A stretch of DNA of 64,000 nt, from contig CBDCTK010000002.1 in assembly GCA_965222225.1 (NCBI GenBank), positions 2,880,001-2,944,000 on the forward strand. The letters are read 5' to 3'. Source of the DNA: Candidatus Poribacteria bacterium. Its GTDB lineage: Bacteria; Poribacteria; WGA-4E; JAJDTR01. Positions 29,291 through 61,720 of the stretch are shown one piece after another (the stretch's first letter is position 1; every line of letters starts with the position of its first letter). The position numbers and the translations under genes were made by a program. The notes under the pieces are model-generated. The model ran no database searches. It was not told the origin of the DNA and saw only the letters and a program-made list of their open reading frames with translations.

Positions 29291-30929
29291 TTGATTATTC
29301 TGGATAATCATATTACCGATCTCCGTCCGCTTTCTAACCTTACAGAACTTGTTGAACTCAATGCACGAGATAATCCCATATCCGATGTGTCTCCCGTATC
29401 CAACTTGCGTAAACTGAAGTACCTCGATTTGAGCCGATGTAATATCGTTGATTTGCAACCACTTGCAGACCTCACACAGTTACACGTGTTGCAACTAAAT
29501 CACAACAACATTGTGGATATACGACCGCTTGCTTCGCTGACGAGGCCCTATAAACTTGAATTACAGCACAACATTATCACCGATTTTAGTCCGGTTTCCC
29601 ATCTCGCACTCGACACATTCTATTTCGATCAATATTGCATTTTACCGCGTCTGCCGCTCTTACCCCGTTTAACCGGGATGACCTTCTCTACCGTATTTAT
29701 GCCTACGTGGTTCATGCCTCACGATTCCGGCAGCCATATGCCTTTTAGTCCCGCAGACCAGTTTTTTGACATGGCCTATCGTTCTGCCGACAGTCAATTA
29801 GTTTCAGATAATCTCTATAATTCTATTGCAATCCGTGACGCCATCATCGCAAATAATCCTACTACAGTTTTTCTCGCCTACCTCCCTTGGCACAAAGCAT
29901 ATTTTACCCAATTACCCAAACATTCCATGTTATGGGCTCGCAACATCAGCGGCGAATTGCTCCTTCAAGATTTCGCCACCGGCGCCTATCTCGATTACAC
30001 CAACCCACTCGCGCGAGCCCTTGTCGTTAAAATGGCATCTGACATCGATAAATGCGGACTATACGACGGCATTGTACTCGACGCCTGGGGCTACGATTTG
30101 TTGCCGACGGATGTTTACAGTTCCGAATCGCAAACAGCCGCCCGCCTCGCTCTCGTAAAAGAAATTCGTGCCGCCACACGCCCAAATTTTTTAATACAAG
30201 TCAATTCGAATAGAAATCGTATCCCCGACACAGCACTGTATATCAACGGTCTCTCAATGGAAACCGGCATTCCCGGTTGGTTTGATGAGACCGACGTGCA
30301 TCTCGCCCTGCGTGAAACTGCACACGCACTACTTTGGGCTGAATCTAACCTTCGTTATCCACAAATAAACGGTGTGGTTGGTTGGGCTATACTCAGTCAA
30401 TCTCCCCACAGCCTCGAAAATCAACGTTGGATGCGTCTTCTTACAGCTTTAACGCTTACTCATTCTAACGGCTTTACGTTGTACCAGCACGGTCCAAATA
30501 CCTGGTATGACTTTTGGGATGCGGACTTAGGGCGTCCAGTGGGGGAGAAGGCACAGGTGTACGAGGGGCGATCAAGCGAGGGGACAGCGAGTGCGATAGA
30601 GATCCCAGGGCTTTATTCGCGAGTACACGAATGGATGGGCAGTGTACAATCATAGCGGGGCGCCACAGGTCATCACATTGCCGGAGGAGGTGCAGGGGGT
30701 AGCCAGCGGACTAGTAAACGTAGAGCATGCGCTGCCGAACCTCGACGGCGAGATGTATTTGCGGGTGACGCCGAAGAATCCGGCGGATGTGAACGGGGAC
30801 GGGGTGGTGAATATTTTGGACTTAACGCTGGTGGCGCAGGGATTTGGGACGGATAGTTTGAAGGGGGATGTGAATGGGGATGGGGTGGTGAATGTGTTTG
30901 ATTTGGTGTTTGTGGCGAACCAGTTCTGA
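29291..30929 (+). pseudogene. LRR / putative glycoside hydrolase-like / dockerin protein, 5'-truncated by the IS and frameshifted near 30616
   Basis: Begins mid-LRR at the IS end; close paralog of 58583..61024; 'CTTTATTCGC' lacks 2 nt relative to GLYIRE; frame resumes in ORF 30642..30929 with the dockerin DVNGDGVVNILDL. Confidence 0.85.
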
Positions 30930-31182
30930 ATCACGGATTAAACGGATTACGCGGATTAGAGGCGGACAATCCTATAATCCACGACAGTTTTGAAATCCTG
31001 AAGCCAACGCATACGCATAATTAGGCAACTGACGCCGGTTGCATCGAAGACAATTGGTCGAATTCAATCAGATCAAGCGAACGATCAAGGAAGCGAATAG
31101 CGACCGCGATAGAGATCTTCTAGTGAGTGCGATAGCAAATCCGCGAAATCCTTTAATCCGCGAAAATCCGCGATTCAGACAA
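30925..31182 (+). mobile_element. MITE-like element, family D (TCTGAATC...GATTCAGACA), containing nested family-A copies
   Basis: Terminal inverted repeats with 9-nt-period GGATT/AATCC units; ~95-nt core shared with 55341-55506 and 61517-61720. Confidence 0.7.
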
Positions 31183-31280
31183 TCGCGCAGGGGTTCGGGA
31201 CGGATAGTTTGAAGGGGGACGTGAATGGGGAGGGGGTTGTGAATGTGTTTGGCTTGGTGTTTGTGGCAAACCAATTCTGA
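31182..31280 (+). pseudogene. Orphan dockerin C-terminal fragment IAQGFGTDSLKGDVNGEGVVNVFGLVFVANQF*
   Basis: Near copy of 30831-30929 with mostly synonymous differences. Confidence 0.8.
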
Positions 31281-31306
31281 TAACGGTGATTCTCTTGAAT
31301 AGAATC

Positions 31307-32590
31307 TCAATCCCGCCTTCTTGATGGCGCTACCGGCACGCGAATATGCGCATTCGCCTCCAATAAGCTATCCGGATCCTCCTCTAGCTGCTTGAACGCC
31401 CGCCGCGTCCACACGTCTGCCTCCACAGCCCGATCTAGCAACGGCTGCTGCACCGTGTCCTGCTCCTCCGGACAGAGATGCCGCATCAGCGGTTGCAATT
31501 CGGTTGGCAGCGCGAGATATTCCGAGTGCGACAGTGGTTGACACACAGTATTGTTTATCCCGTGCGGGGCGTAGTCATCGACAGCAAACCACCAAGGGCA
31601 CCAACGGTTCACCACCGCAATCCGCTCCCGTCCGCTCGTGTTGTGCAGCGGCGAGGCGTGCCAACTGCGCGAGTCCTGAATGTAGACAGACCCCGCCGCA
31701 GCCGTAATCTGCATATCCCCGGGAATCGGCGCCGTGCACGTGATACCGTCGGAAGCTCCGCGGGGGTTTCGTGTGTCTTTGTGAGATCCGGGAACCACCC
31801 AGGTTCCGCCCGAGTCTTCATCCACATCCGTCAGATACCAAATCAGCACCAAACACATGGCGACATCGGGGAACGGCTGGCGGATACAGCCGATGTTTCT
31901 GCCGGGATCGCCCCTGCCGTAGGCTGTCAGGTCATGAGGCCAATCCGTGTGCCATTCGCGCGTGTCGGGTCTGCCTCGGCGGTGAGCCGCACCGAAACCG
32001 CCCGGCGTCCCGTCCGGTTTTGCGGCGTCGATGATACGCAGATGCAGTTGCGCAATCCGAAGGTGGTCGTCCAGAACGCGGCGCGCCACACCGGTAACAA
32101 AGGGATTCGCCAAATGTTGAGCGTACCGCGGCATCCACACAATATCGTTGGGTAGATTCGGAGGGTGCCCGACCCGACGCGCCGGTCTCAACTCCACCTT
32201 GTCCGCGGTCGCCGGATCCGTGAGCAATGCCTCTTCCTTCGCGCCTATCTTCAGCGTTTTCAACGACCCGCCGAGCAATTCCTGCAACGCTTGATGGTTT
32301 CGGTCGATTTTCAACCGCGCAGCCTTGACCTCCTCTCGGATGGCGTCCACCACGCCGTTCGGTATGAGGTTGTCGATCACGCAGAACCCGTATCGATCAA
32401 GCGAATCGGCGCACCCCTCCACCACCTCGTCTGCCGATAACGCCGCCGCGCTGAAGGCGTAACCCCGGTTACGAGCCAGATCGTCGGTGACGGCTTTCGG
32501 GTCATGCTCGGCTTGCGCTATGCGTTCTCGAATCTCCCGAAGTTCTCGTTCCAAGCGTGCTGCTTTAGCGTACAGTGCGGAAATGTTCAT
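31307..32590 (-). CDS. PhyH-family Fe/2OG dioxygenase with N-terminal coiled-coil
   Basis: GFCVIDN, WHTDWPHD, WYLTDV...SGGTWVVPGSH and DSR.WH motifs. Confidence 0.88.
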   Translation of the reverse strand: MNISALYAKAARLERELREIRERIAQAEHDPKAVTDDLARNRGYAFSAAALSADEVVEGCADSLDRYGFCVIDNLIPNGVVDAIREEVKAARLKIDRNHQALQELLGGSLKTLKIGAKEEALLTDPATADKVELRPARRVGHPPNLPNDIVWMPRYAQHLANPFVTGVARRVLDDHLRIAQLHLRIIDAAKPDGTPGGFGAAHRRGRPDTREWHTDWPHDLTAYGRGDPGRNIGCIRQPFPDVAMCLVLIWYLTDVDEDSGGTWVVPGSHKDTRNPRGASDGITCTAPIPGDMQITAAAGSVYIQDSRSWHASPLHNTSGRERIAVVNRWCPWWFAVDDYAPHGINNTVCQPLSHSEYLALPTELQPLMRHLCPEEQDTVQQPLLDRAVEADVWTRRAFKQLEEDPDSLLEANAHIRVPVAPSRRRD

Positions 32591-32669
32591 CTATCAATCC
32601 TATCCTTGTTAATCGCCTCTTTTACGAACCGATGTGTGTTGAAACCTAGTATTTTCTGGGGCTTCAGGG

Positions 32670-33721
32670 TTAAGAACCTGTTTGAAAAATAGATGTCAAA
32701 TCCATTTTGAAGCTGTTGAGTGCTATAATCTGTAGCCCCGCTGGGGCTTAGGTGCGTGGGGTTTCGGCGTTTCCTACACACCTTCATGGATCTCTATCGC
32801 AGTCGCTATTCGCTCCCTTGATCGCACTCTGGGGCTTTTAGAGGCTTGTGCGCCGTGCGCACCCTACAAGATCCCTGATGAAAACCTTGGTTTTGAGGCG
32901 AAATGTATTACAAAAATGAAATCTCAAACAGGTTCTAAGTGTGGGAATGAAACTTGCTACAGGAACGCGTGTTTGCCCTATGAGTCCAAGTTGATTGCAA
33001 TGATACCCAATATGGTTCTGGTGGCTCCGATGTATGCGTTCTTGACACAACTGCTTGACACTTCCAACTACCGGGTGGTTTCTGCCGAGATTATAACAGA
33101 TATAGTCATTTCAATCAAGAGTTATGCATATAGGATTTACACTGTTCGGTTTGTAGGAGCGAGTTTTGCTCGCGATAGGAGGTCGCGATTCGGAGATCGC
33201 TCCTACAATCCTTTGGATGCGTCACTGCGTAAGTCCTAAGTTAATTTCATTTCCACACTTAATGGTTAATTCGCTAAGTATTTATGTATTATCCGGACAT
33301 CAAAGCCCCAGAGGGGCGACACTTGGATTACGTCCCAATCGAAAACATCACAAAGCGAGAGTTAGGCGGCTGCATCAATTTGGACCATGTATTCGAGACA
33401 CATCTGACCTTTCTGGATCTCTATCGCACGGGATCTACTATCGCCCTCCCTAATCAGTCGGCTGATCGTTGTTCACTCGTTTGATCGCAGTGCGCACCCT
33501 ACAAGATGGCAATTCAGAATTGTACTTTTGTACAAAGTCGAGCTTAGCACGGGGAACTCTATCGCACTCATTAGCCATTCGCTTAATTCTTCGTCATCCA
33601 GCCAGTTGATCGCTCGCTTGATCGCGGTAAGAGAGGAAATCGGGATTTGACATCGAAGAATTTCGTCGGCGCAAAAACGGAAGCAGAATAGTTGGGTTTC
33701 ATTGCATTCAACCCAACCTAC
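32670..33721. repeat. Composite repeat zone (REPs, IS-end-like modules, families A and C)
   Basis: GTAGCCCCGCTGGGGCT, GTGCGC..TGCGCACCCTAC, GTAGGAGCGA..TCGCTCCTAC, TAGGATTTAC..GCGTAAGTCCTA and GTTGGGT..AACCCAACCTAC units; no credible ORF. Confidence 0.75.
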
Positions 33722-36904: not shown

Positions 36905-37897
36905 GTGGAGGCGCTCCGATCAACCGACTGATTAGGGAGGGCGATAGTAGATCCCTCAAGCGAGTGGATAGGGAGCGATCAAAGGAATGGATAATGACTG
37001 CGATAGAGTTTCCATACCCAAGTTGCTACTTAGCTCGACTTTGTACATTTGAACGTCATAACGGACAGCGTCAATTAGGCGTTGAAGAAGAACGAGGGAG
37101 ATTTTGATGGCCTGGCTTATTTAGTTGACCATTGAAGAATTCCCCAGCGGTTTCTGATACCATACAACCTGTCGCCCCGCCGGGGATTCGGTGTGGGGTG
37201 ATTCGCTGTTGCTATACACCTATCGCCTCTCTGGGGCTTACAAAGGCCTCTTGGATCTCTATCGCGCGCGCTAACCGCTTGCCTGATTCTATTCGGTCAT
37301 TTGATCCGTACAAGAAGCGGTGGGCATTGCCCACCCTACAAATGTACAAAGTCGAACTTAGAACCTGTTTGAATAATTGGTGGCAAAGCCATTTTTGGTC
37401 ATTTGTAGAAAGTTTTTTCATGTTTTCATTGTGGTCTGCTACATACCTATGGGATTGCTATCGCACTCACAATTCGTTCGTTTGATCCCCGCTGGGGGTT
37501 AGGTGCACGGGGTTTTGGTGTTTCTATACACCTTCATGAATCTCTATCGCATTCGCTATTCGCTCCCTTGATCCCACTCTGGGGCTTTTAGAGGCTGGTG
37601 CGCAGGGGATCTCTATCGCAGTCATTATCCATTCCTTTGATCGCATCCTACAAGAGATTGCCTTGATTGGCAGTGTTTCTAGTCATTGCAACTAAGAATT
37701 ATACATTTAGGATTTGCGCTGTTCGGTTTAGAGTGGCGCATTTTATTGCGCGTATTTTGTCGGAGCGAGCGTTACTCGCGACGGGGAATCGCGACCAGGA
37801 GATCGCTCCTACAAAGGCGTTTTCGGGTAGAATGAAACGTCGGAAGTTCTTTTTTTTGTACGCGATTTCTTTTGGATTTCCGCTCAACCCAACCTAC
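36905..37897. repeat. Composite repeat zone similar to 32670-33721
   Basis: 37488-37604 is a near copy of 32735-32855; at least six family-A copies; several REPs. Confidence 0.75.
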
Positions 37898-37912: not shown

Positions 37913-40900
37913 TTAGAACCGTTGCTCCAGCTTCAAATCGACCCCATACTTCCCATGCTCACTGCGCTCCCCTGTAACCGAGAGCCCACGCTTAATCTGA
38001 TATTCCACTTCGATACGCGGCTCCCCGTGAATTTTCAAGGTTGAGGAATAAGAAATGAGAAGACGATCGAAAATTTCTTTGGAAAGAAGGACTCGCGGTT
38101 TTCCGATGTCGGTGGGGTCATGGTCCCACACCACTTCGTGCATGCCGATGAGTTGCGCCAATCGGTTTTGGAGATACTGTTGTGACGGGCGGACGATCAA
38201 GGGCACGGACGCGCCGAGGGGTGACCTTTCACGTGCGGCGTCGCCGGTTGCCAGAATGAAAAGAATTTGCATCTGGCTCAAATTGTACTCTTCGCTGGCG
38301 CCGCGGTACAACACATCCGCGTAAAATTGGGAATGATGCCTCTGCTCCTCCTGCTTGAGGTAACCGCTGAAATGCGCGCGGATTTCCACGTCCCGTGTGT
38401 GATCGCTGCCGTCGGTCGAGATAACCTGAACCCGCTCGATTGGGTCTAAGGTTTTGGCATTAATCTCATAGCGGGGATTAAATTCATAGGGGTTGGTGTT
38501 CTCGACAAACGAACCCTCCTCAATTGTAAACCGATAAATAATGCCGTTAAGCGAGAACTCGCTCGTTGGCAGCAAATTCACTCGCCCGATGAACGACGGT
38601 TTCTGTATCCGCCCGGAAAGTTTTCCGTCTATCGACACCTCAATATCAAGCTTGCCCAAATTGGATATTACCCGGAAATCGTTCGGGGCATGCACGTCCA
38701 AATCGAATCTCAGGTCCCTCATGACGGGGTAATCGGACCAGACTTCAAGGTGAATTTTGGCTGCTTGATCGAACCACTCATTAACGAGATCCTGCCAATG
38801 TCGTTCGTAAGTACCTTCTAATATGCGAACTGAGCCCTGAATCGGCGGCAAGCCTTCAACGGAGTCGGCGGAATTGGCAATCATCAGATTCCCGCTTTCG
38901 CCGCCCCCGACTGCTCCTTTCATGAATAAGTTCACTTCGCCGCATGTGATGCGGTAGAGTCCGTAGTCTTCAAAGGTGGAACCCCCTTCCAGCGTGGCCG
39001 TGAGATCGAGGTATCCCACGCGGTGCCAGTTGGAGGTACCGTAACCGTCCGCTCGGTAAGCCCCTCCGTTCAAAACCCCTTCCCAGTGCCGTATCTGAAA
39101 TCCTTCATTCGTAAAATCCACGGTAACGTCGGTATTCTTGACGTTGATATTTGCATCTGGTAGATCAAATGCCAGGTCGGCGAAGTTGGCGACGCCTTTG
39201 AGTCGAGGCGCGTCAATCTCCCCTCCAATGGTGACATTAACGCTTCCGGAGCCTTCGGCGAACCCCACCTGCTTCTGGATAAGGGGTAGAAATTCCAAAT
39301 CTTCAATGAATACATCCAATCTCCCTTCGATGGTGTTGGCTTGACCGGGAAGGTTCGAGGTTGGCAGATTCGCATGCAGCCTGTCGAGAGACAAGTCGAG
39401 AGGAATCGATCCGGAGAAGTCCGCACGATTGGATCCGATAACAAAACGAGCCGGTTCTTCGGTATGCAGCTTTCCATTCCGGTAAGCAATCCTACCGACG
39501 CACTCGTCTACACGGGCGCGGTTAATTGATAGATTGAAGGTGTCCCACCGGCAAGTGATTTCGGGGTTTTCGCCCGTGCCGCGCACGTGCAACTCTGAAT
39601 TGAGGCGCCCGTCAACGGCATACCCGTCGGGAAGAAAATCGGAGACAAAGCCAAGATTCAGGTTGCTCGTACGCATGTCGAGAACGTAGTGACCCGTGTA
39701 CGGCGCTTCGTCATCTGCTATTACCGCTTCCTTGCCGGAGACCGACCACTGACCGTTCTCCACTACCAACGTGAAACGCTCCTTCTCACCGATGCCAACA
39801 CGTTGGTCCTGTAAGATGAATCCATCGGCAAGATTAAGCTGCCCGGCGGCTAAATGACACTCGAGTGGGTTGAGGTTTCGGACTTCATAGTCAAGAGCGT
39901 TGATGAAAAGTTCTTCAACCTTTAGCCCGCCCGCCGCATAGCTGGCAAGGTTATGCGGAGTTAACGGCAAAATAATCTTGGGAAGCCACGGCGCATCGCC
40001 CGCCGTGACAAACCGCTCTATCGGGAGGCTTAAATGTCCTTGCGCGGTCACATGTCCGGTCAGATTGGCCGCCATCTTCGCCGGCAGAACGTTTCGGGCG
40101 AAGTCGGAGAGTTGCGCCTGTTGGGCATGAAAACTCCGAACTTCAACGGTTCTGGGGAGGAGTCCGTTCATATCGCAATAAACGTTCAGCGCATACTTGC
40201 CTTCGCCGATTTCAAAGCGAAACTCCGGTACGCGGAGCTCATCCTGTTCCACTCGCAGGCTTAGCCGTGCGTCCGAAATCGGTGTATCAAAGTTGGTGAA
40301 TTTGACCATCCCACCTTGGAGGGATGCCGTGCCGTATAAATGCGGCGCGGCGGTTGTGCCGCGTATCTTGAGGTTTATATCGGCTATCCCGCTGGTGGTT
40401 TCGAGTTGTGGCTGAAACCGGGAGAGAAAACTGAGATCGGCTTCTTGACTGCGTATTTCGAGATTAACGGGCTGGTCGAGGAATCGGTCTTTCAAGTCGT
40501 GCGGTTGGAGTCGCAGATCAATCGGTATGGTGCCCTGTATTCTCAAATGGTTTCCATAACCGCTCAATTGGGTCTGCTTAATCTCGAATACACGCTCGCG
40601 ATATTCCACCTGTCCGGTATCCGTGAACTCCAGGAAATGAGACGTGAGTTGATCGCCGACGCTGCCGTGCGCCTCCCACTCTGCATCAATGACGGGATTA
40701 GCGATATTCCCGCCTACATGAGCCACGCCGGTCAAACTCGCTTCAACCCCGACGGTGCTGTTGAACAGCGGCACCGTCATCCCGGGCAACAGGGCGCCGA
40801 ACGGAAAGCCCGTGAGTTCAAAATCAAACTCCAAATCACCATCCAAGTTGATCCAGCCGCGGGTGTCAGCCCATTTGGCGATGTTCGGGGATGGGCGATT

Positions 40901-43900
40901 GCCGGATTGATTGGCGACTACCGAATCCTCGTTTTCCTCTGCTTCGTTGCTCTCCATACTGCTAGGCGACCCAATTTGGAACGAGTTTATCCGGAACGTG
41001 CCATCGGCTAATTCGGCGCGAATCGGTTCGACGGTTAGCATGTCGCGGTTGTTAAAATCTACGTGTAAATTGTCAAGCGTCAGTTGCGCCGAAATTCGAT
41101 CAAGGCTGTAGCCGTCCCCGTCAAGTTCGAGCCGCGAATCGACTATCGCTCGGGTAATCTTGTCGGAGAACAGATACTCGGAGATTTCGTGACTGCCGAT
41201 CTTGTTGACGAAGTGCCTCGCGAAATCGGTTAGATTGATGCCTTTTCCATCTAGCTGAAGTTGAAAAGAGGGATCAAGCGACCGAATAGGGAGCGCGATA
41301 GTGATCCCCTCAAGCGACGATTCTCCCTCCTCCCTTTCATTGGAATCGCCCTCCGCGTACGACAGAAAGAGATCGATGAGTGTGGTTTGCGTCTTTGTTC
41401 GAGGCAGCTGCCAATTCGCCTTCGCTTGATAGCGCCCCTCTCCTATCTGCCATGCGGCGGTATCTGCGGTAACTGTCAGCAGCTTGTCGGATGTCCCGTC
41501 TCCGCCAACGACTCGCAGATCAAGGTTTATGTTTTCAAGCGGCTGAGGGTAATCGAGAACGTGCACTTTGGCGTCGGTTACGCCGATTGATGCGTCAACC
41601 CTCGGGTCGCTGAACGTTCCGGTGAGATGTGCGTCGAGGTTTAGCTGTCCCTCCGTAGACAGCTTAATCGTAGGTTGCCAATCGTGGATTGCCTCGAAGA
41701 GCTGCTCTAGATTCATGGAACCCAAATCAAAATCCACGATGTATGTTCGGAGATCGACGGTTGAGGATTGAAGGCTATCGAGATCCACGGCGGCAGTGGC
41801 TTCGGCTTCCACCGGCACGCCCGTCAGGAGAAAATTGAAGGGTTCGACTGTCAGCGTTTGGTCGGCATAGGCAACCTTGCCCGACGCCTCGCTTACGACG
41901 ATCGGAACGGGGGCGTTTTCAACGCGGAGTTCGGGAATCGCCCACTCAAGCGTGAGTTCGGGGTTTGCGAGGCTTCCGGCGCCGATGAGCTTGTAGCTGG
42001 CGCTTCCGGTTAGGGTTGCGGGGAGGTCCAACACGCCGCATAAGGGTTCAAGCCGGAAGTCTCGGGATTCGGCGACAAAATCAATCGACTGATCGTCTAG
42101 CGTCAAGCAGCAAGTCACGAACGGGGTGTCAACGGTTTTCCCTTCTAAATTGGCGAGCGAGAAGGAATCAACTCTCCAGATGTTGTCGATAAAACCGAAC
42201 CTGATTGGCGCCGCATTTGTCAACCGCCTGCCGTTGACTTCGAGTGCGAGGGAAGAGATCGACGTATCAAGCGTGAATTGTGTCAAATCTAGCAGTGTGC
42301 CGCTGAGTTGGAATGTGCCGTTAGCCGTCGCCGGAATCTCTTTTAAGGCATTGTGAAATATGCCTAGTATGGGACCGATGTTTATCCCGTTGCTCCGCAT
42401 GAAAAGTTGGTAGGGGTTGCCGAGGGTCGATTCTATGATGCCGCGTATCTGGCTGCTGCCGTCAAAGCCGATGCCTTCGAATCGGAGCGCGTTCTCGGTG
42501 AACACGCCGCTGATTCGAATCTCGGGGGAATTACGATTGCCATCACCTTCAGGGATTATGGTGTGATTGTCGTAGGTGATGTCGGAGAAATCGAAATTGA
42601 CATCAACTCGCGGATTGGCGGCATTGCCTTCACCGGTCGCGTGCACGAGGAGGTCGGCGTCCAACAGAAAATCCGGTTCCGGTATAGCGCGGGCAATCGC
42701 AAGTTCTTTCAATCGCATCGGATCGCTCTGAAACTGGAGTTGATAGTCAAGCTCCGGCGTGATTTGGAAATTGATGACGCCGCGTTGTTCCCGCGCGAAC
42801 ACCTCAAAGTCGGACACGTGCACGGTGTAATCCTCTATGACTAGGGGAAGGATTAGGGGGTCGAGCGCCAAATCCCAGGCTTTCGCATCCGCGACGTTGA
42901 GCCTGCCGCGCCCGTCAATGCCGTTTAACGTCCCGTCAAGCGCCAGATTGCCGGTGACAACACCCTCGACGGGGTACTCGGCGCCTGCCAATAGCCGCAC
43001 ATAATCCGAAATCTGAAAGGGATGGGCACGGACGCGGAACTCGACGGGGATATCGCCCTCGACTTGAGCGACTCCGTCCAGGGTCAATAGGCTCTCCCCT
43101 TTGGATAGGCGGACGGGTTGGAGGGTTACGCTGCCGTTCCGATAATGGAAGTTCGCTGTCAACACGCCGATGGGCACATCGAAAAGACTGGCTTCGGGGA
43201 TTTCCAGAAATCCGGTTAGCGGAACATCCGATGTAATCTTTCCGCGGAGTGTCGCGTCGCCGCCGAGATTGGGGGCGCGTATGATTTCCATCAATTTGCC
43301 GGTGTCGATGCGCCGTATCTCCAGATCGAGATTCAACGCCCCTTCTAGACCGGCTGCGCCGTTGACTCGGATGTTGGCGTCGTCGAGATTGGCGGCAACT
43401 TGGAGTTGGTTCCCCGCTATCTCAAAACTGGCTTCCGAAACGCGGATGCGAACATCGTTCATCGTGGCTTGGTCGATTTTCAACCCGCCCGTAAGCGTTA
43501 AGGAATCAGCGATCGCCGATTTCGGATTCTCTTCGCTTTGCGGCGACACCTCTTGAGTTGTCGGCAGCGAGCCGCTGATGTGGAGGCGGCTGTCGAGGAT
43601 TCCAGTCATGGTGAGAAAGTCTTCGGGAAGGTCGATGAACACTGGGAGGATTTCCTCGACGTTGGCGCCCTCAAGCTCTGCCCAGCCATCGTAGGCAATC
43701 GGCGATTCTGCGTTCTCTTCGGATGAAGGTGTCTGCGCCGTGGTATCCCGAGGCGATTGCTCGGAAATGGACATTAGAGAAAAAAGACTTCTTCCCAGGC
43801 CCCCGAAACGCGCCTCCAAACCCGCGGTGAGTTTGCCGGACGCGAGCGTCCCATTCACGTCGGTCAACTTAAGCGCGTTCCGGTTGAATTCGGCATTGAC

Positions 43901-45169
43901 GTTGAGTTCCTCCAACTGGAAGTTGTTGAAGGCTGCCGCGCGCAACTCGAGGTGCAGGTTGCCGCTGATATCCGATGATGTCCCCTTCGCTTCGAGGTTT
44001 ATCCGCGCATTCCCGGCGACCTCGAATCGGTCGGGGAGGAGATTTTGGAAGTCACCCAAATCAATATCCAAATCGATTCTGGTCTCCAGATAGCGCGACG
44101 CCTCCGTGAAATCGCGGACTTTTCCGGCAATCGCCAAGCGCGACTTCCCCATCGCAAGTTGCATCTCTTTCAACTCACCCTCGTCCGCGAGCAGCTTGAA
44201 CCGGGTTTTGAACTCATGAATCTTCGTCTTTACGCCATTTAGCTCGAAACTCCCATCTTGAATAGCCAAGTTTCCGGTGTGCTCCCACCGATCAAGCGGT
44301 CCTTCGACCCGACTTTGAATGCCGCTGACAGCAATCTTCAGATTACGTTCGCCGTCTTCATAGTTCACGTACCCATCGACAAACTCGATATTGGAGATTC
44401 CGAATTGGAACGGCAGGCTTGAATCCGATGTGGAATCGGTTTGCGGCGCAAGTGAAGTTAGGTTGAGCCGCCCATCCTCCCGCATACGAAGGTTGAACTC
44501 GGGTCGCATGAAACGCAGCTTGGTGATGTGGAATTTGCCGCCTATCAATCGCCAAAGATCGTATTTTAACACAATCTCTTCCGCGGAGATGAACGGGTGA
44601 TGTCGAAGAAGTCTATCCGAGATTTCAAACCGCTTGAGGCTCAAGCCCGTGAAGATGTCCCCGGAAAGATGGCCGATGCTGACAATGTATTTGAAGACAT
44701 TGAATAATCGGCGATCATCAAATCGCCAGTTTCCCGTCTCGTTGCCATCGCGCCTTATGGCGTATCGCCATTTGTGGTTTTTGTCAGAGACGACCCACTC
44801 TCCAAGTTTGTCAAGGAAGGCAACGGAGACGGCAGGGGAGAATTCGACGCCGTAGTCGGCAAATGCGGATTGCAACACCTCCGGAAGCCGCCCATTATCC
44901 AACGTTACGGCATGCAGATCCGCATACTCTACCGTAAATAGAAGAGGCTGTTCGAATTGCTGACCCAGCCGCGTTTCGAGGGTTGCGCGAATTTTTTCAA
45001 GGAGATAGGCGGAGCGCAGAAACACGACAGCGCCGATGATGAGGCAGATAGGAATTGTTGTGAGTAGTGCTATGACTATGTTTCGTCGGCTCATTGGTGT
45101 AAAGGAATGTCCGGTGACCTGTGACCAACAAAAACGGGTGTCTCTATTTTCCCCGTTTACTGGCGACAA
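37913..45169 (-). CDS. tamB: Translocation/assembly module TamB-like protein (AsmA-like N-terminus, DUF490-like C-terminus)
   Basis: 2418 aa, N-terminal TM anchor, recurring 'G....P...G' beta-taco repeats, C-terminal VEYQI...GVDLKLEQRF. ATG 45094 is an alternative start. Confidence 0.82.
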   Translation of the reverse strand: MSPVNGENRDTRFCWSQVTGHSFTPMSRRNIVIALLTTIPICLIIGAVVFLRSAYLLEKIRATLETRLGQQFEQPLLFTVEYADLHAVTLDNGRLPEVLQSAFADYGVEFSPAVSVAFLDKLGEWVVSDKNHKWRYAIRRDGNETGNWRFDDRRLFNVFKYIVSIGHLSGDIFTGLSLKRFEISDRLLRHHPFISAEEIVLKYDLWRLIGGKFHITKLRFMRPEFNLRMREDGRLNLTSLAPQTDSTSDSSLPFQFGISNIEFVDGYVNYEDGERNLKIAVSGIQSRVEGPLDRWEHTGNLAIQDGSFELNGVKTKIHEFKTRFKLLADEGELKEMQLAMGKSRLAIAGKVRDFTEASRYLETRIDLDIDLGDFQNLLPDRFEVAGNARINLEAKGTSSDISGNLHLELRAAAFNNFQLEELNVNAEFNRNALKLTDVNGTLASGKLTAGLEARFGGLGRSLFSLMSISEQSPRDTTAQTPSSEENAESPIAYDGWAELEGANVEEILPVFIDLPEDFLTMTGILDSRLHISGSLPTTQEVSPQSEENPKSAIADSLTLTGGLKIDQATMNDVRIRVSEASFEIAGNQLQVAANLDDANIRVNGAAGLEGALNLDLEIRRIDTGKLMEIIRAPNLGGDATLRGKITSDVPLTGFLEIPEASLFDVPIGVLTANFHYRNGSVTLQPVRLSKGESLLTLDGVAQVEGDIPVEFRVRAHPFQISDYVRLLAGAEYPVEGVVTGNLALDGTLNGIDGRGRLNVADAKAWDLALDPLILPLVIEDYTVHVSDFEVFAREQRGVINFQITPELDYQLQFQSDPMRLKELAIARAIPEPDFLLDADLLVHATGEGNAANPRVDVNFDFSDITYDNHTIIPEGDGNRNSPEIRISGVFTENALRFEGIGFDGSSQIRGIIESTLGNPYQLFMRSNGINIGPILGIFHNALKEIPATANGTFQLSGTLLDLTQFTLDTSISSLALEVNGRRLTNAAPIRFGFIDNIWRVDSFSLANLEGKTVDTPFVTCCLTLDDQSIDFVAESRDFRLEPLCGVLDLPATLTGSASYKLIGAGSLANPELTLEWAIPELRVENAPVPIVVSEASGKVAYADQTLTVEPFNFLLTGVPVEAEATAAVDLDSLQSSTVDLRTYIVDFDLGSMNLEQLFEAIHDWQPTIKLSTEGQLNLDAHLTGTFSDPRVDASIGVTDAKVHVLDYPQPLENINLDLRVVGGDGTSDKLLTVTADTAAWQIGEGRYQAKANWQLPRTKTQTTLIDLFLSYAEGDSNEREEGESSLEGITIALPIRSLDPSFQLQLDGKGINLTDFARHFVNKIGSHEISEYLFSDKITRAIVDSRLELDGDGYSLDRISAQLTLDNLHVDFNNRDMLTVEPIRAELADGTFRINSFQIGSPSSMESNEAEENEDSVVANQSGNRPSPNIAKWADTRGWINLDGDLEFDFELTGFPFGALLPGMTVPLFNSTVGVEASLTGVAHVGGNIANPVIDAEWEAHGSVGDQLTSHFLEFTDTGQVEYRERVFEIKQTQLSGYGNHLRIQGTIPIDLRLQPHDLKDRFLDQPVNLEIRSQEADLSFLSRFQPQLETTSGIADINLKIRGTTAAPHLYGTASLQGGMVKFTNFDTPISDARLSLRVEQDELRVPEFRFEIGEGKYALNVYCDMNGLLPRTVEVRSFHAQQAQLSDFARNVLPAKMAANLTGHVTAQGHLSLPIERFVTAGDAPWLPKIILPLTPHNLASYAAGGLKVEELFINALDYEVRNLNPLECHLAAGQLNLADGFILQDQRVGIGEKERFTLVVENGQWSVSGKEAVIADDEAPYTGHYVLDMRTSNLNLGFVSDFLPDGYAVDGRLNSELHVRGTGENPEITCRWDTFNLSINRARVDECVGRIAYRNGKLHTEEPARFVIGSNRADFSGSIPLDLSLDRLHANLPTSNLPGQANTIEGRLDVFIEDLEFLPLIQKQVGFAEGSGSVNVTIGGEIDAPRLKGVANFADLAFDLPDANINVKNTDVTVDFTNEGFQIRHWEGVLNGGAYRADGYGTSNWHRVGYLDLTATLEGGSTFEDYGLYRITCGEVNLFMKGAVGGGESGNLMIANSADSVEGLPPIQGSVRILEGTYERHWQDLVNEWFDQAAKIHLEVWSDYPVMRDLRFDLDVHAPNDFRVISNLGKLDIEVSIDGKLSGRIQKPSFIGRVNLLPTSEFSLNGIIYRFTIEEGSFVENTNPYEFNPRYEINAKTLDPIERVQVISTDGSDHTRDVEIRAHFSGYLKQEEQRHHSQFYADVLYRGASEEYNLSQMQILFILATGDAARERSPLGASVPLIVRPSQQYLQNRLAQLIGMHEVVWDHDPTDIGKPRVLLSKEIFDRLLISYSSTLKIHGEPRIEVEYQIKRGLSVTGERSEHGKYGVDLKLEQRF

Positions 45170-45999: not shown

Positions 46000-46398
46000 A
46001 AAAACAGTGGCTAGTGGGGAAATCCATCTAAGAAGGGAATCGGCGATGTGATGATTGGAGATTCCGTTCTAGCGCTTAGAGCCTGTTTGAATAATTAGGT
46101 GTCAAAGCCATTTTTGGGCATCAGAGGCATTTAAGTTGCTACTACTTTGAAATTCTCAACCGTGATTTGATGATTGAAGATTGCTCCTACAGGACATACT
46201 TCATTAAGAAAAGGCTGGTGCGCAGTGCGCACCCTACATCGGCTATCGACAAGCTCCCGATCCGCGAGGAGTGTATCAAGCCGTTGTTTGTTAGGATTGT
46301 GGATCGTCGTAGGTTGCATAAAAACAGTGGCTAGTGGGGAAATCCATCTAAGAAGGGAATCGGCGATGTGATGATTAAAGATTCCATTCTAGCGCTTA
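45919..46398. repeat. 160-bp direct duplication of the tlyA 5' end and upstream region (45919-46078 and 46239-46398) around a repeat insert
   Basis: Near-identical copies 320 nt apart; produce the truncated ORF 46131..46319. Confidence 0.9.
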
Positions 46399-48950: not shown

Positions 48951-49155
48951 TAGACTCCATGACAGGTTGAGACAACCGTCAAATTATACCATTTCTCTAA
49001 AATTCAAGTGCATTGATTGCGTGGGTCAAGTAAAGAAACTTATTTGGATCGGAGTAAGAGGCCTTGTCTCCACGCAAAGTGGGCGGGGGAAGGGGATCTC
49101 TATCGCATTCGCTATTCGCTCATTTGATCGTCGCTGGTGCGTTCAAAGGCTGGTG

Positions 49156-49727
49156 CGCAGTGCGCACCCTACAAGATGGCAATTCGGAATTGTACTTTTG
49201 TACAAAGTCGAGCTTAGGGCCTGTTTGAATAATAGGTGGCAAAGCAATTTCGGTCACTTTGGGCGCGGCTTTTTCATGCTTTTGTGGTCGCCTGCTATAC
49301 ACCTGTCAGGATTTCTATCGTATTCGCTATTCGCTCGCTTGATCCCACGCTGGGGCTTTCAAAGGCTGGTAGGATCTCTATCGCGCTCATTATTCATTCG
49401 CTTGATCGCAGTGCGCACCCTACAAGATGGCAATTCGGAATTGTACTTTTGTACAAAGTCGAGCTTAGGGCCTGTTTGAATAATAGGTGGCAAAGCAATT
49501 TCGGTCACTTTGGGCGCGGCTTTTTCATGCTTTTGTGGTCGCCTGCTATACACCTGTCAGGATTTCTATCGTATTCGCTATTCGCTCGCTTGATCCCACG
49601 CTGGGGCTTTCAAAGGCTGGTAGGATCTCTATCGCGCTCATTATTCATTCGCTTGATCGCAGTGCGCACCCTACAAGATGGCAATTTGGAATTGTACTTT
49701 CGTACAAAGTCAAGCTTAGGGCCTGTT
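49156..49727. repeat. 251-bp tandem repeat, about 2.3 copies, built from REP, IS-end-like and family-A modules
   Basis: Units start at 49156, 49407 and 49658. Confidence 0.9.
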
Positions 49728-49766
49728 GGTAACGACATTCGGGGGCCGAAGGACAGTCAAACTCGC

Positions 49767-50060
49767 CTAGAAGGGGATGACGTCCTCCGTTTCCGAGGCG
49801 GCTTCGGATTCCGCACCTTGAGCCGCTTCACCTTCACTTTCGGTCAGTGACGTATCCGGATCGCTCTCCTCATCCTCAACCAGTCGCCGTACCCGCAACT
49901 CCGCCTCCTCAAGCGTCTTGCGGCACAACCGCGTCAATCGAACACCCTCCTCGAACGCCGCCAAAGATTCATCCAACGTCAACGAATCCCCACGTTCAAG
50001 CCGATCGACCACGTCTTCAAGCTGTTTTAGAGTTTCCTCAAACGTCAATTCTTCAGACAT
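49767..50060 (-). CDS. xseB: Exodeoxyribonuclease VII small subunit with acidic tail
   Basis: TFEE.L..LE.VV..LE.G...L.ESL..FEEG..L...C...L..AE motif; downstream of xseA. Confidence 0.95.
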   Translation of the reverse strand: MSEELTFEETLKQLEDVVDRLERGDSLTLDESLAAFEEGVRLTRLCRKTLEEAELRVRRLVEDEESDPDTSLTESEGEAAQGAESEAASETEDVIPF

Positions 50061-52460: not shown

Positions 52461-52586
52461 AATAGTGATGCGTTGCAGAGGAATAGCAGAAACCGAGTTT
52501 TCAAGAAGAACAAGAAATCTCTATCGCACAGGATTTTCTATCGGGAGTTCTATCGCCTTCCTAATCCAGTCAGTTGATCGGTTTCG

Positions 52587-55242: not shown

Positions 55243-55340
55243 TCAAAATACATTAGCTGCAAACACCAAATCAAACACATTGACAACCCCATCCCCGTTC
55301 ACGTCGATGCCCGCTTCATCCTCCCGAACCCCTGGGCCAT
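55243..55340 (-). pseudogene. Orphan dockerin C-terminal fragment (MAQGFG, frameshift, EDEAGIDVNGDGVVNVFDLVFAANVF*)
   Basis: Direct translation of the minus strand; abuts the family-D element end. Confidence 0.75.
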
Positions 55341-55506
55341 TGTCTGAATCGCAGGATTTGCTATCGCGCTCATTATTCATTCGCTTGATCGTCTTTGATT
55401 CAACCGGCGTCAGTTGCCTAATTATGTGTATGCGTTGGCTTCTGGATTCCCAAACTGTCGTGGATTAAAGATCACCCGCTTTTAATCTGCGCAATCTGTG
55501 TAATCC
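55341..55506 (-). mobile_element. Family-D MITE-like element, partly eroded
   Basis: Shares the core and the GATTCAGACA end with 30925-31182. Confidence 0.65.
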
Positions 55507-55563
55507 GAACATCTTGGCGCGCTAGCGATTCAATTTGCTTTCAAAACGATGAAACTAAATCCT

Positions 55564-56550: not shown

Positions 56551-56598
56551 GACAAGGCTCCTTATTTGGCGTACGTGATTGGCAACCTAATTTTATCC

Positions 56599-57897: not shown

Positions 57898-58280
57898 CGT
57901 AGTCTGAAATCCTTTCGTTCCGTTTTAGAGTCCGTTTGTAGATTTATTTCGAAGAAAAATATATCTTTAGATAGTCCTAATTTTCTTACGTATTAGACCT
58001 GATGCCGTACAGCTCAATATAGCGTAATAAGATCTCGGTTGATTGTTGGCTTGATTCTCCAATCTTCACAGCATAATCATACCTTGTAAAAAGTCATTTT
58101 TCAATCAGAAATAGTTAATATATGTTAAGTATTATATAATTAAGCCTGCTTCATAGGACATAGACAATTCCTCGCTTGGGTTTCCGGTGGTCCCTGCCCA
58201 CTGTCTTTCTCGCCCTTCCATCCTTCCACCAGCCAGCTAACCCTATACAAAAAAAGCCCGCCAGCGGCGTCATGAGAAAC

Positions 58281-58368
58281 AGTGATGAGTGACCAGTTGC
58301 CAGTGTCCAGTAAAAGCCAAACATTTTCTTGCCGTTACTGACCACCAACCACTGACCACAAGCCACTG
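58281..58368. repeat. Inverted pair of 7-nt-period tracts (CAGTNNC / ACTGACC)
   Basis: GAGTGAC-CAGTTGC-CAGTGTC-CAGT versus ACTGACC-ACCAACC-ACTGACC-ACAAGCC-ACTG. Confidence 0.65.
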
Positions 58369-58437
58369 GGTTTCTAAGACTTCCACTAACGGGCTTGTCT
58401 TTCTTCCACACCCTATGGTTATTACCGTGAACTGAAG

Positions 58438-58582
58438 AGAAACTCTATCGATCAACTGAGTGAATAACGAAGGATTAAGCGAATGAATAATGAGCGCGAT
58501 AGTGAATCCTGATAGAAAGTCCTACTCCCTATTCAGTCGCTTGAGGGATTTACTATCGCCTTCGCTATCCGCTCAGTTGATC
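58438..58582. repeat. Cluster of nested and truncated family-A elements in both orientations
   Basis: Multiple TATCG heads and TTGATC/TTGA tails; the last copy abuts the stop codon at 58583. Confidence 0.75.
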
Positions 58583-61516: not shown

Positions 61517-61720
61517 TTGTCTGAATCGCGGATTTGCTATCGCACTCACTATCCGTTCGCTTGATTTGATTAAATTCGACCAATCATCTTCGATGCAACC
61601 GGCGCCATTTGCCTAATTATGCGTATGCGTTGACTTCAGGATTCCCAAACTGTTGTGGATTAACGGATTGCCCGCTTTTATCTGCGCAATCTGTGTAATC
61701 CGTTTAATCAGCGATTCAGA
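61517..61720 (-). mobile_element. Family-D MITE-like element
   Basis: TCTGAATCGC...GCGATTCAGA terminal inverted repeats; shared core; one family-A copy at about 61530-61566. Confidence 0.7.

What the first reader, a model, noticed from the sequence alone, without database searches (positions are those of the whole stretch)
31071..33486. Family-A elements insert into each other and into REP hairpins without target-site duplication
Seen in sequence, from filled and empty comparisons within the window. (1) 33416-33486 is an outer copy split after TATCGCAC by a 36-nt inner copy, and the reconstructed outer copy still covaries (AC,GT,AC,GT). (2) The copy at 31071-31141 matches the uninterrupted copy at 61530-61566 apart from a net +35-nt inner copy at 31083-31117. 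(3) The empty REP GGCTGGTGCGCAGTGCGCACCCTAC (49148, 46213) is interrupted at 49371 and at 37606 at different offsets, net about +34 to +35 nt. (4) Stacked or truncated copies occur at 36918-37013, 52514-52579 and 58438-58582. Junctions show no duplication, and often 1-3 nt of microhomology or loss. Inference: insertion targets hairpin-forming or single-stranded DNA, as in HUH-type or template-switch capture rather than DDE transposition.
Basis: partly seen in the sequence, partly recalled or inferred. Interest (0 to 1): 0.8.

Follow-up and report, generated by a model that had tools for sequence, protein, structure and literature searches.

The report
Tiny self-nesting hairpin element in Poribacteria
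A 36-37-base non-coding hairpin sequence has copied itself more than a thousand times through this sponge-symbiont genome, landing inside other hairpins (including its own copies) without the usual transposon footprint, and no enzyme that moves it could be found.

Summary
Family A is a 37-nt unit, GGGATYT-CTATCGC-nn-TC-nn-TATYC-nn-TC-nn-TTGATC. It has 1131 copies on the main contig, against 0 in a reversed-sequence control.

- **Structure:** four covarying stem pairs.
- **Nesting:** 307 of 1131 copies sit inside another copy, in 290 distinct combinations.
- **Other targets:** further copies interrupt at least three REP families at fixed sites and in one orientation.
- **Junctions:** against 87 high-quality paralogous empty sites, 77 filled sites lack 1-4 target bases and none shows a duplication.
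- **Mobility:** orthologous empty sites in sister species prove it. One site shows an empty, single and nested series.
- **Strand bias:** orientation follows local GC skew (odds ratio 4.45).
- **Range:** abundant only in two genera of Candidatus Poribacteria.

No dedicated transposase was found. The Y1 (HUH) genes are flanked by other repeats.

The best reading is a trans-mobilised, unit-length single-stranded hairpin module patched into hairpin DNA during replication. It is not DDE transposition. The exact enzymology is open. The closest known things are REPs and the very small cyanobacterial repeats.

The parts
33415..33429 (+). Head of the outer family-A copy (GGATCTCTATCGCAC), split after its first stem dinucleotide
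   Evidence: excision gives a 51.4-bit outer copy at offset 16
33430..33467 (+). Inner family-A copy nested in the outer copy, same orientation
   Evidence: matrix hit 33431-33467, 39.1 bits
33468..33486 (+). Tail of the outer copy (GTTGTTCACTCGTTTGATC). It is followed at 33487-33503 by the 3' arm of REP1 (GCAGTGCGCACCCTACA)
   Evidence: tail matrix 25.8 bits; family D10
31071..31082 (-). Tail of the outer copy, read on the minus strand
31083..31119 (-). Inner copy inserted in the loop of the outer copy. Net +35 nt relative to the intact copy at 61530-61566
   Evidence: 47.9 bits; excision gives a 49.9-bit outer copy at offset 22
31120..31142 (-). Head of the outer copy
   Evidence: head matrix 24.6 bits at 31125-31142
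61530..61566 (+). Uninterrupted copy with the same stems as the outer copy at 31071-31142. It serves as the empty-site reference
46213..46237 (+). Empty REP1 (its complement is a GTAG-tagged REP)
   Evidence: 56 such empty copies in the genome
49148..49172 (+). Empty REP1, first unit of a 251-nt tandem repeat
   Evidence: (D5, D10)
49371..49407 (+). Family-A copy inside REP1 after GGCTGGT, with target GC missing. It is repeated at 49622-49658 in the next tandem unit
   Evidence: 18 filled sites of this type, all lacking GC
37606..37642 (+). Family-A copy inside REP1 at another offset (after GGTGCGCA), with target GTGC missing
36918..37013 (-). Stack made of a full copy (36918-36954), a tail fragment (36954-36972) and a full copy (36977-37013). 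A related strain carries 19 extra A-like bases after 36916
   Evidence: run X10, one contig
52514..52579 (+). Two orphan heads followed by one full copy (52543-52579)
58438..58582 (.). Complex of copies in both orientations: tail 58450-58468 (-), full 58473-58509 (-), tail 58528-58546 (+), full 58546-58582 (+)
41272..41350 (-). Family-A copy (41272-41308) plus 42 nt of unique sequence inside a 2418-aa TamB/AsmA-like ORF. This is an in-frame +72 nt insertion absent from six sister species
32787..32823 (+). Solitary family-A copy lying inside a 'B' REP (…ACACCTTCA[A]CACTCTGGGGC…)
   Evidence: (D9), 58-type matrix hit listed

Best explanation
Family A is a very small non-coding mobile element, one 36-37-nt hairpin module. 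It spreads as a whole unit and depends on factors supplied in trans.

**Shown**
- It is a discrete unit with conserved unpaired blocks and four covarying stem pairs.
- New copies arise over time, as shown by the empty, single and nested series at one orthologous site.
- They land preferentially in hairpin-forming DNA: their own copies and several REP families.
- Orientation is fixed relative to the target, and the strand follows the local GC skew.
- Integration makes no target duplication and usually removes 1-4 target bases, occasionally many more.
- The TTGATC end of the unit overlaps bases already present in the target by 1-7 nt.

**Inferred**
- A unit-length single-stranded copy (DNA, less likely RNA) is released from, or copied off, an existing element.
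- The structured strand is the one reading GATCAA-nn-GA-nn-GRATA-nn-GA-nn-GCGATAG, because it alone allows G.T wobbles and tandem G.A pairs.
- This copy is patched into a nick or gap at an extruded hairpin during replication. One end is set by short base pairing with the target and the other by the end of the unit.
- The enzyme is unknown. The HUH (Y1) nucleases that serve the genome's REPs are the obvious candidates for making unit-length pieces.

The outcome is a selfish repeat that occupies 0.74 % of the genome and keeps breaking up REPs, its own copies and, rarely, genes.
For: **Unit and structure**
- 1131 copies against 0 in the control.
- 910 distinct 37-mers among 1047 copies. Mutual information for the four pairs is 0.43-1.16 bits.
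- On 145 copies from 14 genomes, 95.3 % of cells pair against 64.5 % in shuffles (0 of 500 shuffles reach it). All 4 of 4 pairs show double changes.

**Strand of the fold**
- Of 4524 pair cells, 3731 are Watson-Crick, 517 are A.C on the top strand (that is, G.T on the bottom strand), 102 are G.T on the top strand and 174 are other mismatches.

**Independent insertions**
- 307 nested cases fall into 290 distinct combinations of offset, orientation, outer stems and inner stems.
- Copies at the same REP site carry different stems.
- Inner copies score higher than reconstructed outer copies, 45.7 against 40.5 bits.

**Orthologous proof of mobility**
- +72 nt in the TamB-like gene against six sister species. 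G022 flanks are 99 % identical.
- Three-state series: G024, G022 and G023 empty; G026 with one copy; G000 with the same copy plus an inner one.

**Junctions**
- 77 of 87 high-quality comparisons lose 1-4 nt, 0 are exact, 0 are true duplications, 3 are mixed. The remaining 7 are alignments to variant or otherwise altered contexts, not target duplications.
- REP1 is filled 18 times, always minus GC. REPg is filled 22 times, always minus ATGC. The B REP is filled 33 times, minus CGC.
- The lost bases end in C, the last base of the unit, in 57 of 77 cases.
- There is a 7-nt overlap, GATCAAG, at the TamB site and a 2-nt overlap at the 133-nt deletion.

**Hairpin targets:**

**Strand asymmetry**
- Orientation against skew sign is 337/188 and 174/432, odds ratio 4.45, P = 2e-33.
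- Spearman correlation is 0.55 with skew and 0.04 with gene strand.
- The association holds for nested, in-REP and other copies.
- REP families show the same polarity. A is always on the same relative strand inside REPs, 27-52 cases against 0-4.

**Established knowledge.** Y1 HUH enzymes act on single-stranded hairpins at replication forks, and REPs are hairpins with a 5' guide tetranucleotide (PMC6006769, passages read).
Against: - No intermediate (unit-length ssDNA, circle or RNA) was observed.
- No enzyme is tied to the element. Y1 genes near A copies are near them only because A sits in their own flanking REPs.
- Known HUH transposons insert precisely next to a fixed short target and lose nothing. 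Here no fixed target motif exists and loss is variable.
- The junction statistics are dominated by a few REP families, so the cases are not independent.
- The replication origin was not located and the skew curve is fragmented. 'Follows replication' therefore rests on skew as a proxy. Under the usual convention, the structured strand lies on the C-rich strand, which is not the strand expected from IS608-type elements.
- The G.T asymmetry would fit an RNA fold as well.
- Two of the coding-region sites (the 133-nt deletion and the 42 nt of unique filler) could reflect secondary events after insertion.
Confidence: 0.55

Rival explanations
1. This is canonical single-strand (HUH, IS200/IS605- or RAYT-like) transposition. 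A Y1 transposase recognises the A hairpin, excises or copies it, and inserts it precisely. The small losses are later decay or alignment ambiguity.
For: - The hairpin has conserved unpaired bases. There is no duplication. The strand bias matches that of the genome's REPs.
- The genome has five Y1_Tnp matches. One is an intact 157-aa IS200-like gene with visible HUH and catalytic-Tyr motifs.
- The insertion site within each REP family is reproducible: 18 of 18, 22 of 22 and 33 of 33.
Against: - No Y1 gene is flanked by A as its own repeat. The Y1a type is bracketed by the B REP in the 29 loci inspected by eye across the phylum. A is present only in genus g1, inside those REPs.
- Full-length relatives of the A-flanked remnant Y1e have no A in 29 of 29 loci.
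- The four g7 genomes show no consistent pairing.
- There is no conserved flanking target motif.
- Target loss of 1-4 nt occurs in 77 of 87 comparisons and is never 0.
- There is a 7-nt overlap and extra filler at the orthologous TamB site.
Confidence: 0.2
2. Insertion is RNA-mediated. A small structured RNA transcribed from A copies is reverse-transcribed into nicked hairpin DNA, in a target-primed manner.
For: - Wobble pairs are allowed on one strand only.
- Small target deletions and overlap at one end resemble target-primed reverse transcription (recalled knowledge).
- 3' halves outnumber 5' halves, 1539 against 1134.
- One reverse-transcriptase-like gene is present.
Against: - Orientation is unrelated to gene strand (rho 0.04) but related to GC skew.
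- Copy density is equal in all intergenic types, about 0.88 per kb.
- The only RT is a 670-aa gene below the Pfam cut-off (26.8 against 29.6 bits). It is found in 1 of 4 A-positive g7 genomes and carries a stop codon in G022.
- Much of the tail excess comes from outer copies whose heads are split by the main insertion hotspot.
Confidence: 0.1
3. A has no mobility of its own. It was captured once in each context, the composites (REP+A, A+A) were amplified by REP machinery or recombination, and the nested forms are by-products or assembly errors.
For: - Some composites recur. The largest nested combination has 4 copies.
- A 251-nt tandem repeat duplicates a filled REP (D5).
- Filled REPs always show the same junction.
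Against: - 277 of 290 nested combinations are singletons.
- Stems differ among copies at the same REP site while the REP flanks stay near-identical.
- Orthologous empty sites exist in unique coding sequence.
- The same pattern appears in 13 other assemblies.
Confidence: 0.03

Closest known systems
[quoted passage not shown] The paper is not held in the library. It is described here from recall and from its citation as an unexplained short palindromic repeat in PMC3116915 (passage).
   Same: Both are tiny (tens of nt) non-coding dispersed repeats with a hairpin. Both are found inside one another and inside other repeats. Both are thought mobile with no transposase known (recalled).
   Different: - The phylum differs (Poribacteria, not Cyanobacteria).
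- This unit is 36-37 nt; the SDRs are recalled as 21-27 nt.
- The junction rules, the GC-skew bias and the orthologous nested series shown here could not be checked against that paper.
REP / REPIN elements mobilised by RAYT (TnpA-REP) Y1 HUH transposases. Sources: PMC6006769, PMC3733652 and PMC3116915, read as passages and abstracts.
   Same: - Extragenic, high-copy hairpins of 21-65 nt.
- Single-strand logic.
- Same polarity relative to GC skew as this genome's own REPs.
- No target duplication.
- Some REPs are reported to sit inside target palindromes (PMC3733652, passage).
   Different: - There is no GT[AG]G guide at the foot of the hairpin.
- No cognate flanked transposase gene (REPtron) was found.
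- It is not organised as inverted doublets.
- It inserts into REPs and into itself.
- It removes 1-4 target bases.
IS200/IS605 family (IS608, ISDra2) and their gene-less derivatives
   Same: Strand-specific hairpin ends, insertion into single-stranded DNA at the replication fork, and no duplication (PMC6006769 abstract and background).
   Different: - Those elements have two different ends.
- They insert next to a fixed 4-5-nt target and lose nothing (recalled).
- A is a single hairpin with no fixed flanking motif and variable target loss.
- No TnpB-type gene was found in the genome.
Insertion sequences that target REPs (IS1397 and others). These are seen only as reference-list entries in PMC3116915 and in one sentence of PMC3733652.
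   Same: REP hairpins serve as preferred insertion sites.
   Different: Those are full-length protein-coding insertion sequences. A is 37 nt and non-coding. No IS110-type gene was found here.
Rickettsia palindromic elements (RPE) inserted in frame in genes (PMC3733652, background passage)
   Same: A is occasionally found in frame inside long ORFs: +72 nt in a TamB-like gene and +36/+72 nt at C2:3117010.
   Different: In-ORF copies are rare here. Only 68 of 1131 lie inside crude ORFs, and 8 have at least 80 codons on both sides.

Membership tests
REP / REPIN (RAYT-associated) | Short hairpin of 21-65 nt present in many extragenic copies | tested here: met
   A 37-nt hairpin with 1131 copies, 1055 of them outside crude ORFs
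REP / REPIN (RAYT-associated) | GT[AG]G guide tetranucleotide 0-2 nt 5' of the hairpin foot (PMC6006769, methods passage) | tested here: not met
   The structured strand starts GATCAA and the other strand starts CTATCGC. Neither has GTAG or GTGG at the foot
REP / REPIN (RAYT-associated) | A cognate tnpA-REP gene flanked by the repeat (REPtron) | tested here: not met
   Y1 genes are flanked by other REPs. A is adjacent only where it has inserted into those REPs
REP / REPIN (RAYT-associated) | Units paired as inverted doublets (REPINs) | tested here: not met
   Neighbouring copies 21-100 nt apart are mostly direct: ++ 67, -- 92, -+ 30, +- 8
IS200/IS605-type single-strand transposon (or gene-less derivative) | Insertion immediately 3' of a fixed 4-5-nt target, with no loss or gain of target bases (recalled) | tested here: not met
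   No conserved flanking motif among 524 solitary copies. Loss of 1-4 nt in 77 of 87 comparisons
IS200/IS605-type single-strand transposon (or gene-less derivative) | Orientation bias relative to replication | tested here: inconclusive
   There is a strong bias relative to GC skew (odds ratio 4.45). The origin and terminus are not mapped, the skew curve is fragmented, and the polarity appears opposite to that expected
DDE-transposase MITE | Terminal inverted repeats plus a target-site duplication of fixed length | tested here: not met
   0 true duplications in 87 comparisons. None at the orthologous sites
Cyanobacterial SDR families (Elhai 2008) | Sequence or structure match to SDR1-8 | not testable with these tools
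   The paper and its sequences are not held. A full-text search for SDR5 found 0 papers
Any Rfam RNA family | Match at or above the gathering score | tested here: not met
   0 matches in the 64-kb window, which holds 29 copies

The most novel reading that the evidence does not exclude
Family A moves by a route that is not transposition in the usual sense. Hairpins extruded at the replication fork are nicked or gapped, and the gap is filled with a unit-length hairpin 'patch' primed by a few bases of homology. Ordinary replication or repair enzymes would do this, and no element-specific recombinase would be needed. The element would then be a self-propagating repair filler that selects for its own target, since each insertion creates a new hairpin. 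That would explain why it nests in itself.
Probability: 0.3. Interest if true: 0.9.

Novelty: new variant of a known kind. Interest (0 to 1): 0.75.

Why it matters
How the smallest bacterial repeats move has been open since REPs and the cyanobacterial small dispersed repeats were described. For REPs a nuclease is known, but insertion has never been reconstituted. For the smallest repeats nothing is known.

This family offers an unusually clean data set.
- The unit is sharply defined and has a proven structure.
- There are more than a thousand copies in each of ten sequenced species.
- There are hundreds of independent self-insertions. Their junctions can be read against a known target, the element itself.
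- At least one orthologous series runs from empty to single to nested.

The rules extracted here are concrete enough to test on oligonucleotides or in a heterologous host. They are hairpin targets, fixed relative strand, loss of 1-4 bases, overlap at one end only, and strand bias with GC skew.

The element also matters for annotating sponge-symbiont genomes. It fragments short-read assemblies, disrupts REPs, and occasionally adds or removes codons in genes.

Tried and rejected
1. **Raw-read test for chimeras and population polymorphism.** Only Logan contigs were available for the four runs laid (X3, X4, X10, X13). They break at the repeats, so nested sites are not bridged. The one hint is 19 extra A-like bases after 36916 in one X10 contig.
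2. **Orthologous intergenic empty sites in sister species.** Genes are only 85-89 % identical, and intergenic DNA does not align.
3. **Closer strains in metagenome contigs.** The best relatives are at most 77 % identical at protein level. There are 0 A copies in 716 kb.
4. **A as the cognate repeat of a Y1 transposase.** Rejected.
5. **Reverse transcriptase, IS110 and TnpB as movers.**
   - One weak RT with a non-matching distribution.
   - No IS110 and no TnpB match in a 94.9 %-complete genome.
6. **A as the joined ends of a longer element.** Head-to-tail distances give no class beyond nesting.
7. **Gaps in whole-genome self-alignment.** Megablast broke alignments at the copies and yielded only 8 gap events. 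This was replaced by joined-flank searches.
8. **Preference for terminator-like positions or for a gene strand.** None found.
9. **Viral contigs.** 0 matches.
10. **Rfam.** 0 matches.
12. **Elhai 2008.** Could not be read. Literature searches for Poribacteria repeats or similar nested hairpin elements returned nothing relevant. These cover only the held open-access library.
13. **Coding-region cases L336, L337 and L339.** L336 and L339 were too repetitive or complex to interpret. L337 was fetched but not searched.
Full report
**Scope and source.** The window is G000:C2:2880001-2944000 of a 5.70-Mb, two-contig genome with 50 % G+C. An exact-pattern scan of one genome per species returned 129 loci. 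All of them come from 13 assemblies titled Candidatus Poribacteria.

**The unit.**
- Aligning 1047 pattern matches gives sharp borders and a 37-nt consensus, GGGATYT-CTATCGC-nn-TC-nn-TATYC-nn-TC-nn-TTGATC.
- A weight matrix finds 1131 copies at 15 bits or more on C2 and none on the reversed sequence. That is 0.74 % of the contig. The window holds 29.
- The eight 'n' positions form four pairs with mutual information of 0.43-1.16 bits. There are 910 distinct 37-mers among the 1047 copies.
- On 145 copies from the window and 13 other assemblies, 95.3 % of cells pair against 64.5 % in shuffles (0 of 500 shuffles reach it). All four pairs show double changes.
- Non-Watson-Crick cells are strongly one-sided. 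There are 517 A.C on the strand written above, which are G.T on its complement, against 102 G.T on the written strand, out of 4524 cells.
- The strand that folds is therefore GATCAA-nn-GA-nn-GRATA-nn-GA-nn-GCGATAG-ARATCCC. It forms a 4-bp-plus-tandem-G.A stem with a five-base loop. The reading of the G.A pairs is an inference from sequence.
- No Rfam family matches.

All are present as described.

**Self-nesting genome-wide.**
- Removing each copy in silico, with 4 nt of slack either side, and rescanning the joined flanks reveals an outer copy of 20 bits or more for 333 of 1131 copies. The figure for displaced controls is 1 of 1125. The controls avoided neighbouring copies.
- Of the 333, 307 have the junction at offsets 4-33. 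Of those, 261 are in the same orientation as the host and 46 are opposite.
- Offsets cluster after CTAT in the head (142 cases), after the first stem dinucleotide (offsets 15-19) and in the loop (offsets 22-23).
- The 307 cases make 290 distinct combinations of offset, orientation and stem alleles. 277 of these are singletons, so they are independent events rather than amplified composites.
- Inner copies score higher than reconstructed outer ones (45.7 against 40.5 bits), as expected if the outer copies are older.
- In the loci from other species, 64 of 215 copies are nested with the same main hotspot, against 0 of 207 controls.

**REP targets.** The genome has several GTAG-tagged REPs and a non-GTAG 'B' REP.

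| REP | Empty form | Empty copies | Filled copies | Target bases always missing |
|---|---|---|---|---|
| REP1 | GGCTGGT-GCGCA-GTGCGCACC | 56 | 18 | GC |
| REPg | GGGGCAAG-ATGCCC-CGCCTAC | 15 | 22 | ATGC |
| B | ACCTGT-CGCCCCG-CTGGGGC | 14-27 | 33 | CGC |

- Copies at one site carry different stems while the REP flanks stay alike.
- A is always in one relative orientation, 27-52 cases against 0-4. This places its folding strand on the GTAG strand.

**Junction rules from paralogous empty sites.**
- Joined 70+70-nt flanks were searched against the genome. 87 copies have an empty paralogue at 88 % identity or more that spans at least 30 nt on each side.
- 77 of the 87 lack 1-4 target bases (20, 27, 24 and 6 cases respectively), none is exact and 3 are mixed. 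The 7 that appear to carry extra bases are alignments to variant contexts, not duplications.
- The missing bases end in C, the last base of the unit, in 57 of 77 cases. This suggests that the last one or two bases are often shared with the target.
- In 54 non-nested cases the missing bases lie in a predicted stem (45) or loop (9), never outside. Background in the same windows is 54/34/12 %.
- Many cases sit at the loop-stem boundary, judged by eye.
- These cases come from a handful of REP families and are not independent.
- For 524 solitary copies, the joined flanks fold better than two controls: median -8.1 against -6.1 and -6.0 kcal/mol, P about 1e-22 and 1e-18.

**Orthologous evidence.** Copies inside long ORFs (8 of 1131) allowed alignment to sister species.

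1. *Window 41272-41350, in a 2418-aa TamB/AsmA-like ORF.*
   - G000 has 72 extra in-frame bases compared with six species. G022 flanks are 99 % identical.
   - The insert follows a pre-existing GGATCAAG, a 7-nt overlap with the start of the folding strand.
   - It consists of the rest of A plus 42 nt found nowhere else in the genome.
   - About 15 nt beside the far junction also differ from G022.
2. *C2:2965617.* A replaces 133 nt of a 23S_rRNA_IVP-family gene that three sister species retain, with a 2-nt overlap.
3. *C2:3909957.* There are +36 nt relative to an 82 %-identical paralogue. The 3' half of A lies over a similar target stretch. This case is weaker because the comparison is with a paralogue.
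4. *C2:3117010.* G024, G022 and G023 are empty. G026 has one copy (+36). G000 has the same copy, with the same stems, plus an inner copy after CGCAC (+72). This shows sequential nesting directly.

None of the four sites has a duplication.

**Strand asymmetry.**
- Orientation tracks the sign of GC skew within ±50 kb: 337 '+' and 188 '-' where skew is positive, 174 '+' and 432 '-' where it is negative. The odds ratio is 4.45, P = 2e-33.
- Over 100-kb bins, rho is 0.55 with skew and 0.04 with gene-strand bias.
- The association holds for nested copies, in-REP copies and other copies, with odds ratios of 3.6, 7.2 and 3.7.
- The element's own composition works against this correlation (an inference from its sequence).
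- REP families show the same polarity.
- The cumulative skew curve has several reversals. Replication direction is therefore inferred, not known.
- Density is about 0.88 per kb in every class of intergenic region, and orientation is only weakly related to neighbouring genes, 322 same against 380 opposite.

**Distribution.**
- Exact-pattern counts in 176 genomes of the phylum are 380-934 in all 10 genomes of genus g1, 129-151 in all 4 of g7 (another family), 16 in G041, 5 in G146 and 0-2 elsewhere. The reversed pattern gives 0 everywhere.
- Diverged variants would escape this pattern.
- There is no match in viral contigs.

**Search for a mover.**
- G000 has five Y1_Tnp matches.
- Y1a is intact at 157 aa. 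It scores 65.8 bits against the NCBIfam IS200 model and 83.7 bits against Pfam.
- Relatives of Y1a occur in 105 of 176 genomes. In the 29 loci read by eye, the gene is bracketed by inverted B-type hairpins, not by A.
- A lies next to it only in genus g1, inside those hairpins.
- The 92-aa remnant Y1e is flanked by A on both sides, but its full-length relatives are not, in 0 of 29 loci.
- Y1c and Y1d are flanked by their own GTAG REPs. Y1c carries a stop codon and Y1d a frameshift.
- The four g7 genomes show no consistent Y1-A pairing.
- No IS110 or TnpB match was found.
- One RT-like gene has a distribution that does not match that of A.

**Mechanism.**
- *Shown:* a discrete mobile unit, hairpin targets, fixed relative strand, no duplication, small target loss, overlap at the TTGATC end, skew-linked orientation, and no cognate gene.
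- *Inferred:* a unit-length single-stranded copy is patched into nicked or gapped hairpin DNA at the replication fork, anchored by short pairing at one end.
  - Constant unit length argues for a discrete intermediate rather than free template switching.
  - Imprecise junctions, the 133-nt deletion and the foreign filler argue against a precise HUH strand transfer.
- A strict HUH model, an RNA route and a 'no own mobility' model are kept as rivals at 0.2, 0.1 and 0.03.

**Comparison with known systems.**
- A works most like REPs and like the cyanobacterial small dispersed repeats. It fails the tested REP criteria: the guide tetranucleotide, the flanked cognate gene and the doublet organisation.
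- It fails the IS200/IS605 criteria of a fixed target and an exact junction.
- It fails the MITE criterion of a duplication.
- Membership of the SDR families could not be tested because the paper is not held.
- I file it as a new variant of the very small hairpin repeats, in a new phylum, with unusually explicit insertion rules.

**Limits.**
- The gene map is a crude ORF map.
- GC skew is only a proxy for replication direction.
- Folding used RNA parameters.
- Junction counts are family-biased.
- The literature check covers only the held library.

Noticed in passing
G000:C2:3080255-3080728 (L130 1384-1857, minus strand), and 29 loci L135-L163 in other genomes: An intact 157-aa IS200-like Y1 transposase gene has relatives in 105 of 176 Poribacteria genomes. 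It is bracketed by inverted copies of a non-GTAG hairpin repeat (…AGCCCCAGCGGGGCGACAGGTG / CACCTGTCGCCCCGCTGGGGCTT), often in arrays. The arrangement is REPtron-like, although NCBIfam calls the gene IS200-type rather than RAYT.
   Followed up: partly
whole contig C2: The cumulative GC skew has several reversals: a maximum near 0.83 Mb, a minimum near 2.54 Mb and a second maximum near 3.25 Mb. Blocks of uniform repeat orientation follow these reversals. This suggests large inversions or assembly joins.
   Followed up: no
window 40900-41700 (TamB/AsmA-like ORF 37913..45169, minus strand): This stretch is 99 % identical to G022, whereas the neighbouring gene at 31307-32590 is 89 % identical to the same genome. 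This could reflect recent exchange or strong conservation of the giant gene.
   Followed up: no
window 49142-49894: A 251-nt unit is repeated about three times in tandem at 98 % identity. Each unit is a mosaic of REP1, family A and the B REP, and the first unit holds an empty REP1 where the next two hold filled ones.
   Followed up: partly
G000:C2:3560268-3560543 (L134 1444-1719, minus strand): A 92-aa C-terminal remnant of a RAYT-like gene begins exactly at a family-A copy and ends 20 nt before another. A may have truncated the gene.
   Followed up: partly
G000:C2:3088937-3089269 and C2:3727739-3727966: Two further RAYT-like genes are flanked by their own GTAG REPs (GTAGGAGCGATC… and GTAGTAGGCAC…). 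One has an in-frame TAG and the other a frameshift, so both are probably decaying.
   Followed up: no
G000:C2:4499560-4501572 (L321 514-2526, minus strand): A 670-aa protein has a weak reverse-transcriptase match and a YVDD motif. It lies next to another 164-aa ORF. It is present in G034 and is stop-interrupted in G022. It looks like a defence-type RT, which is an inference.
   Followed up: partly
window 30782-31268 and 55243-61860: There are repeated 81-nt-spaced segments whose translation reads like GDVNGDG…VN calcium-binding or dockerin-like repeats. This is my reading of the DNA and was not tested against a family library.
   Followed up: no
window 36916: One contig of run X10 carries 19 extra bases here that resemble the first half of a family-A copy. 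It is otherwise near-identical, with 2 differences in 393 nt. This hints at strain-level variation in a stack of copies.
   Followed up: no
genome-wide stem positions of family A: Each variable stem position uses only three of the four bases. For example, T never occupies the first stem position and A never occupies the second on the written strand. One Watson-Crick pair type is therefore missing at each pair. This is unexplained.
   Followed up: no
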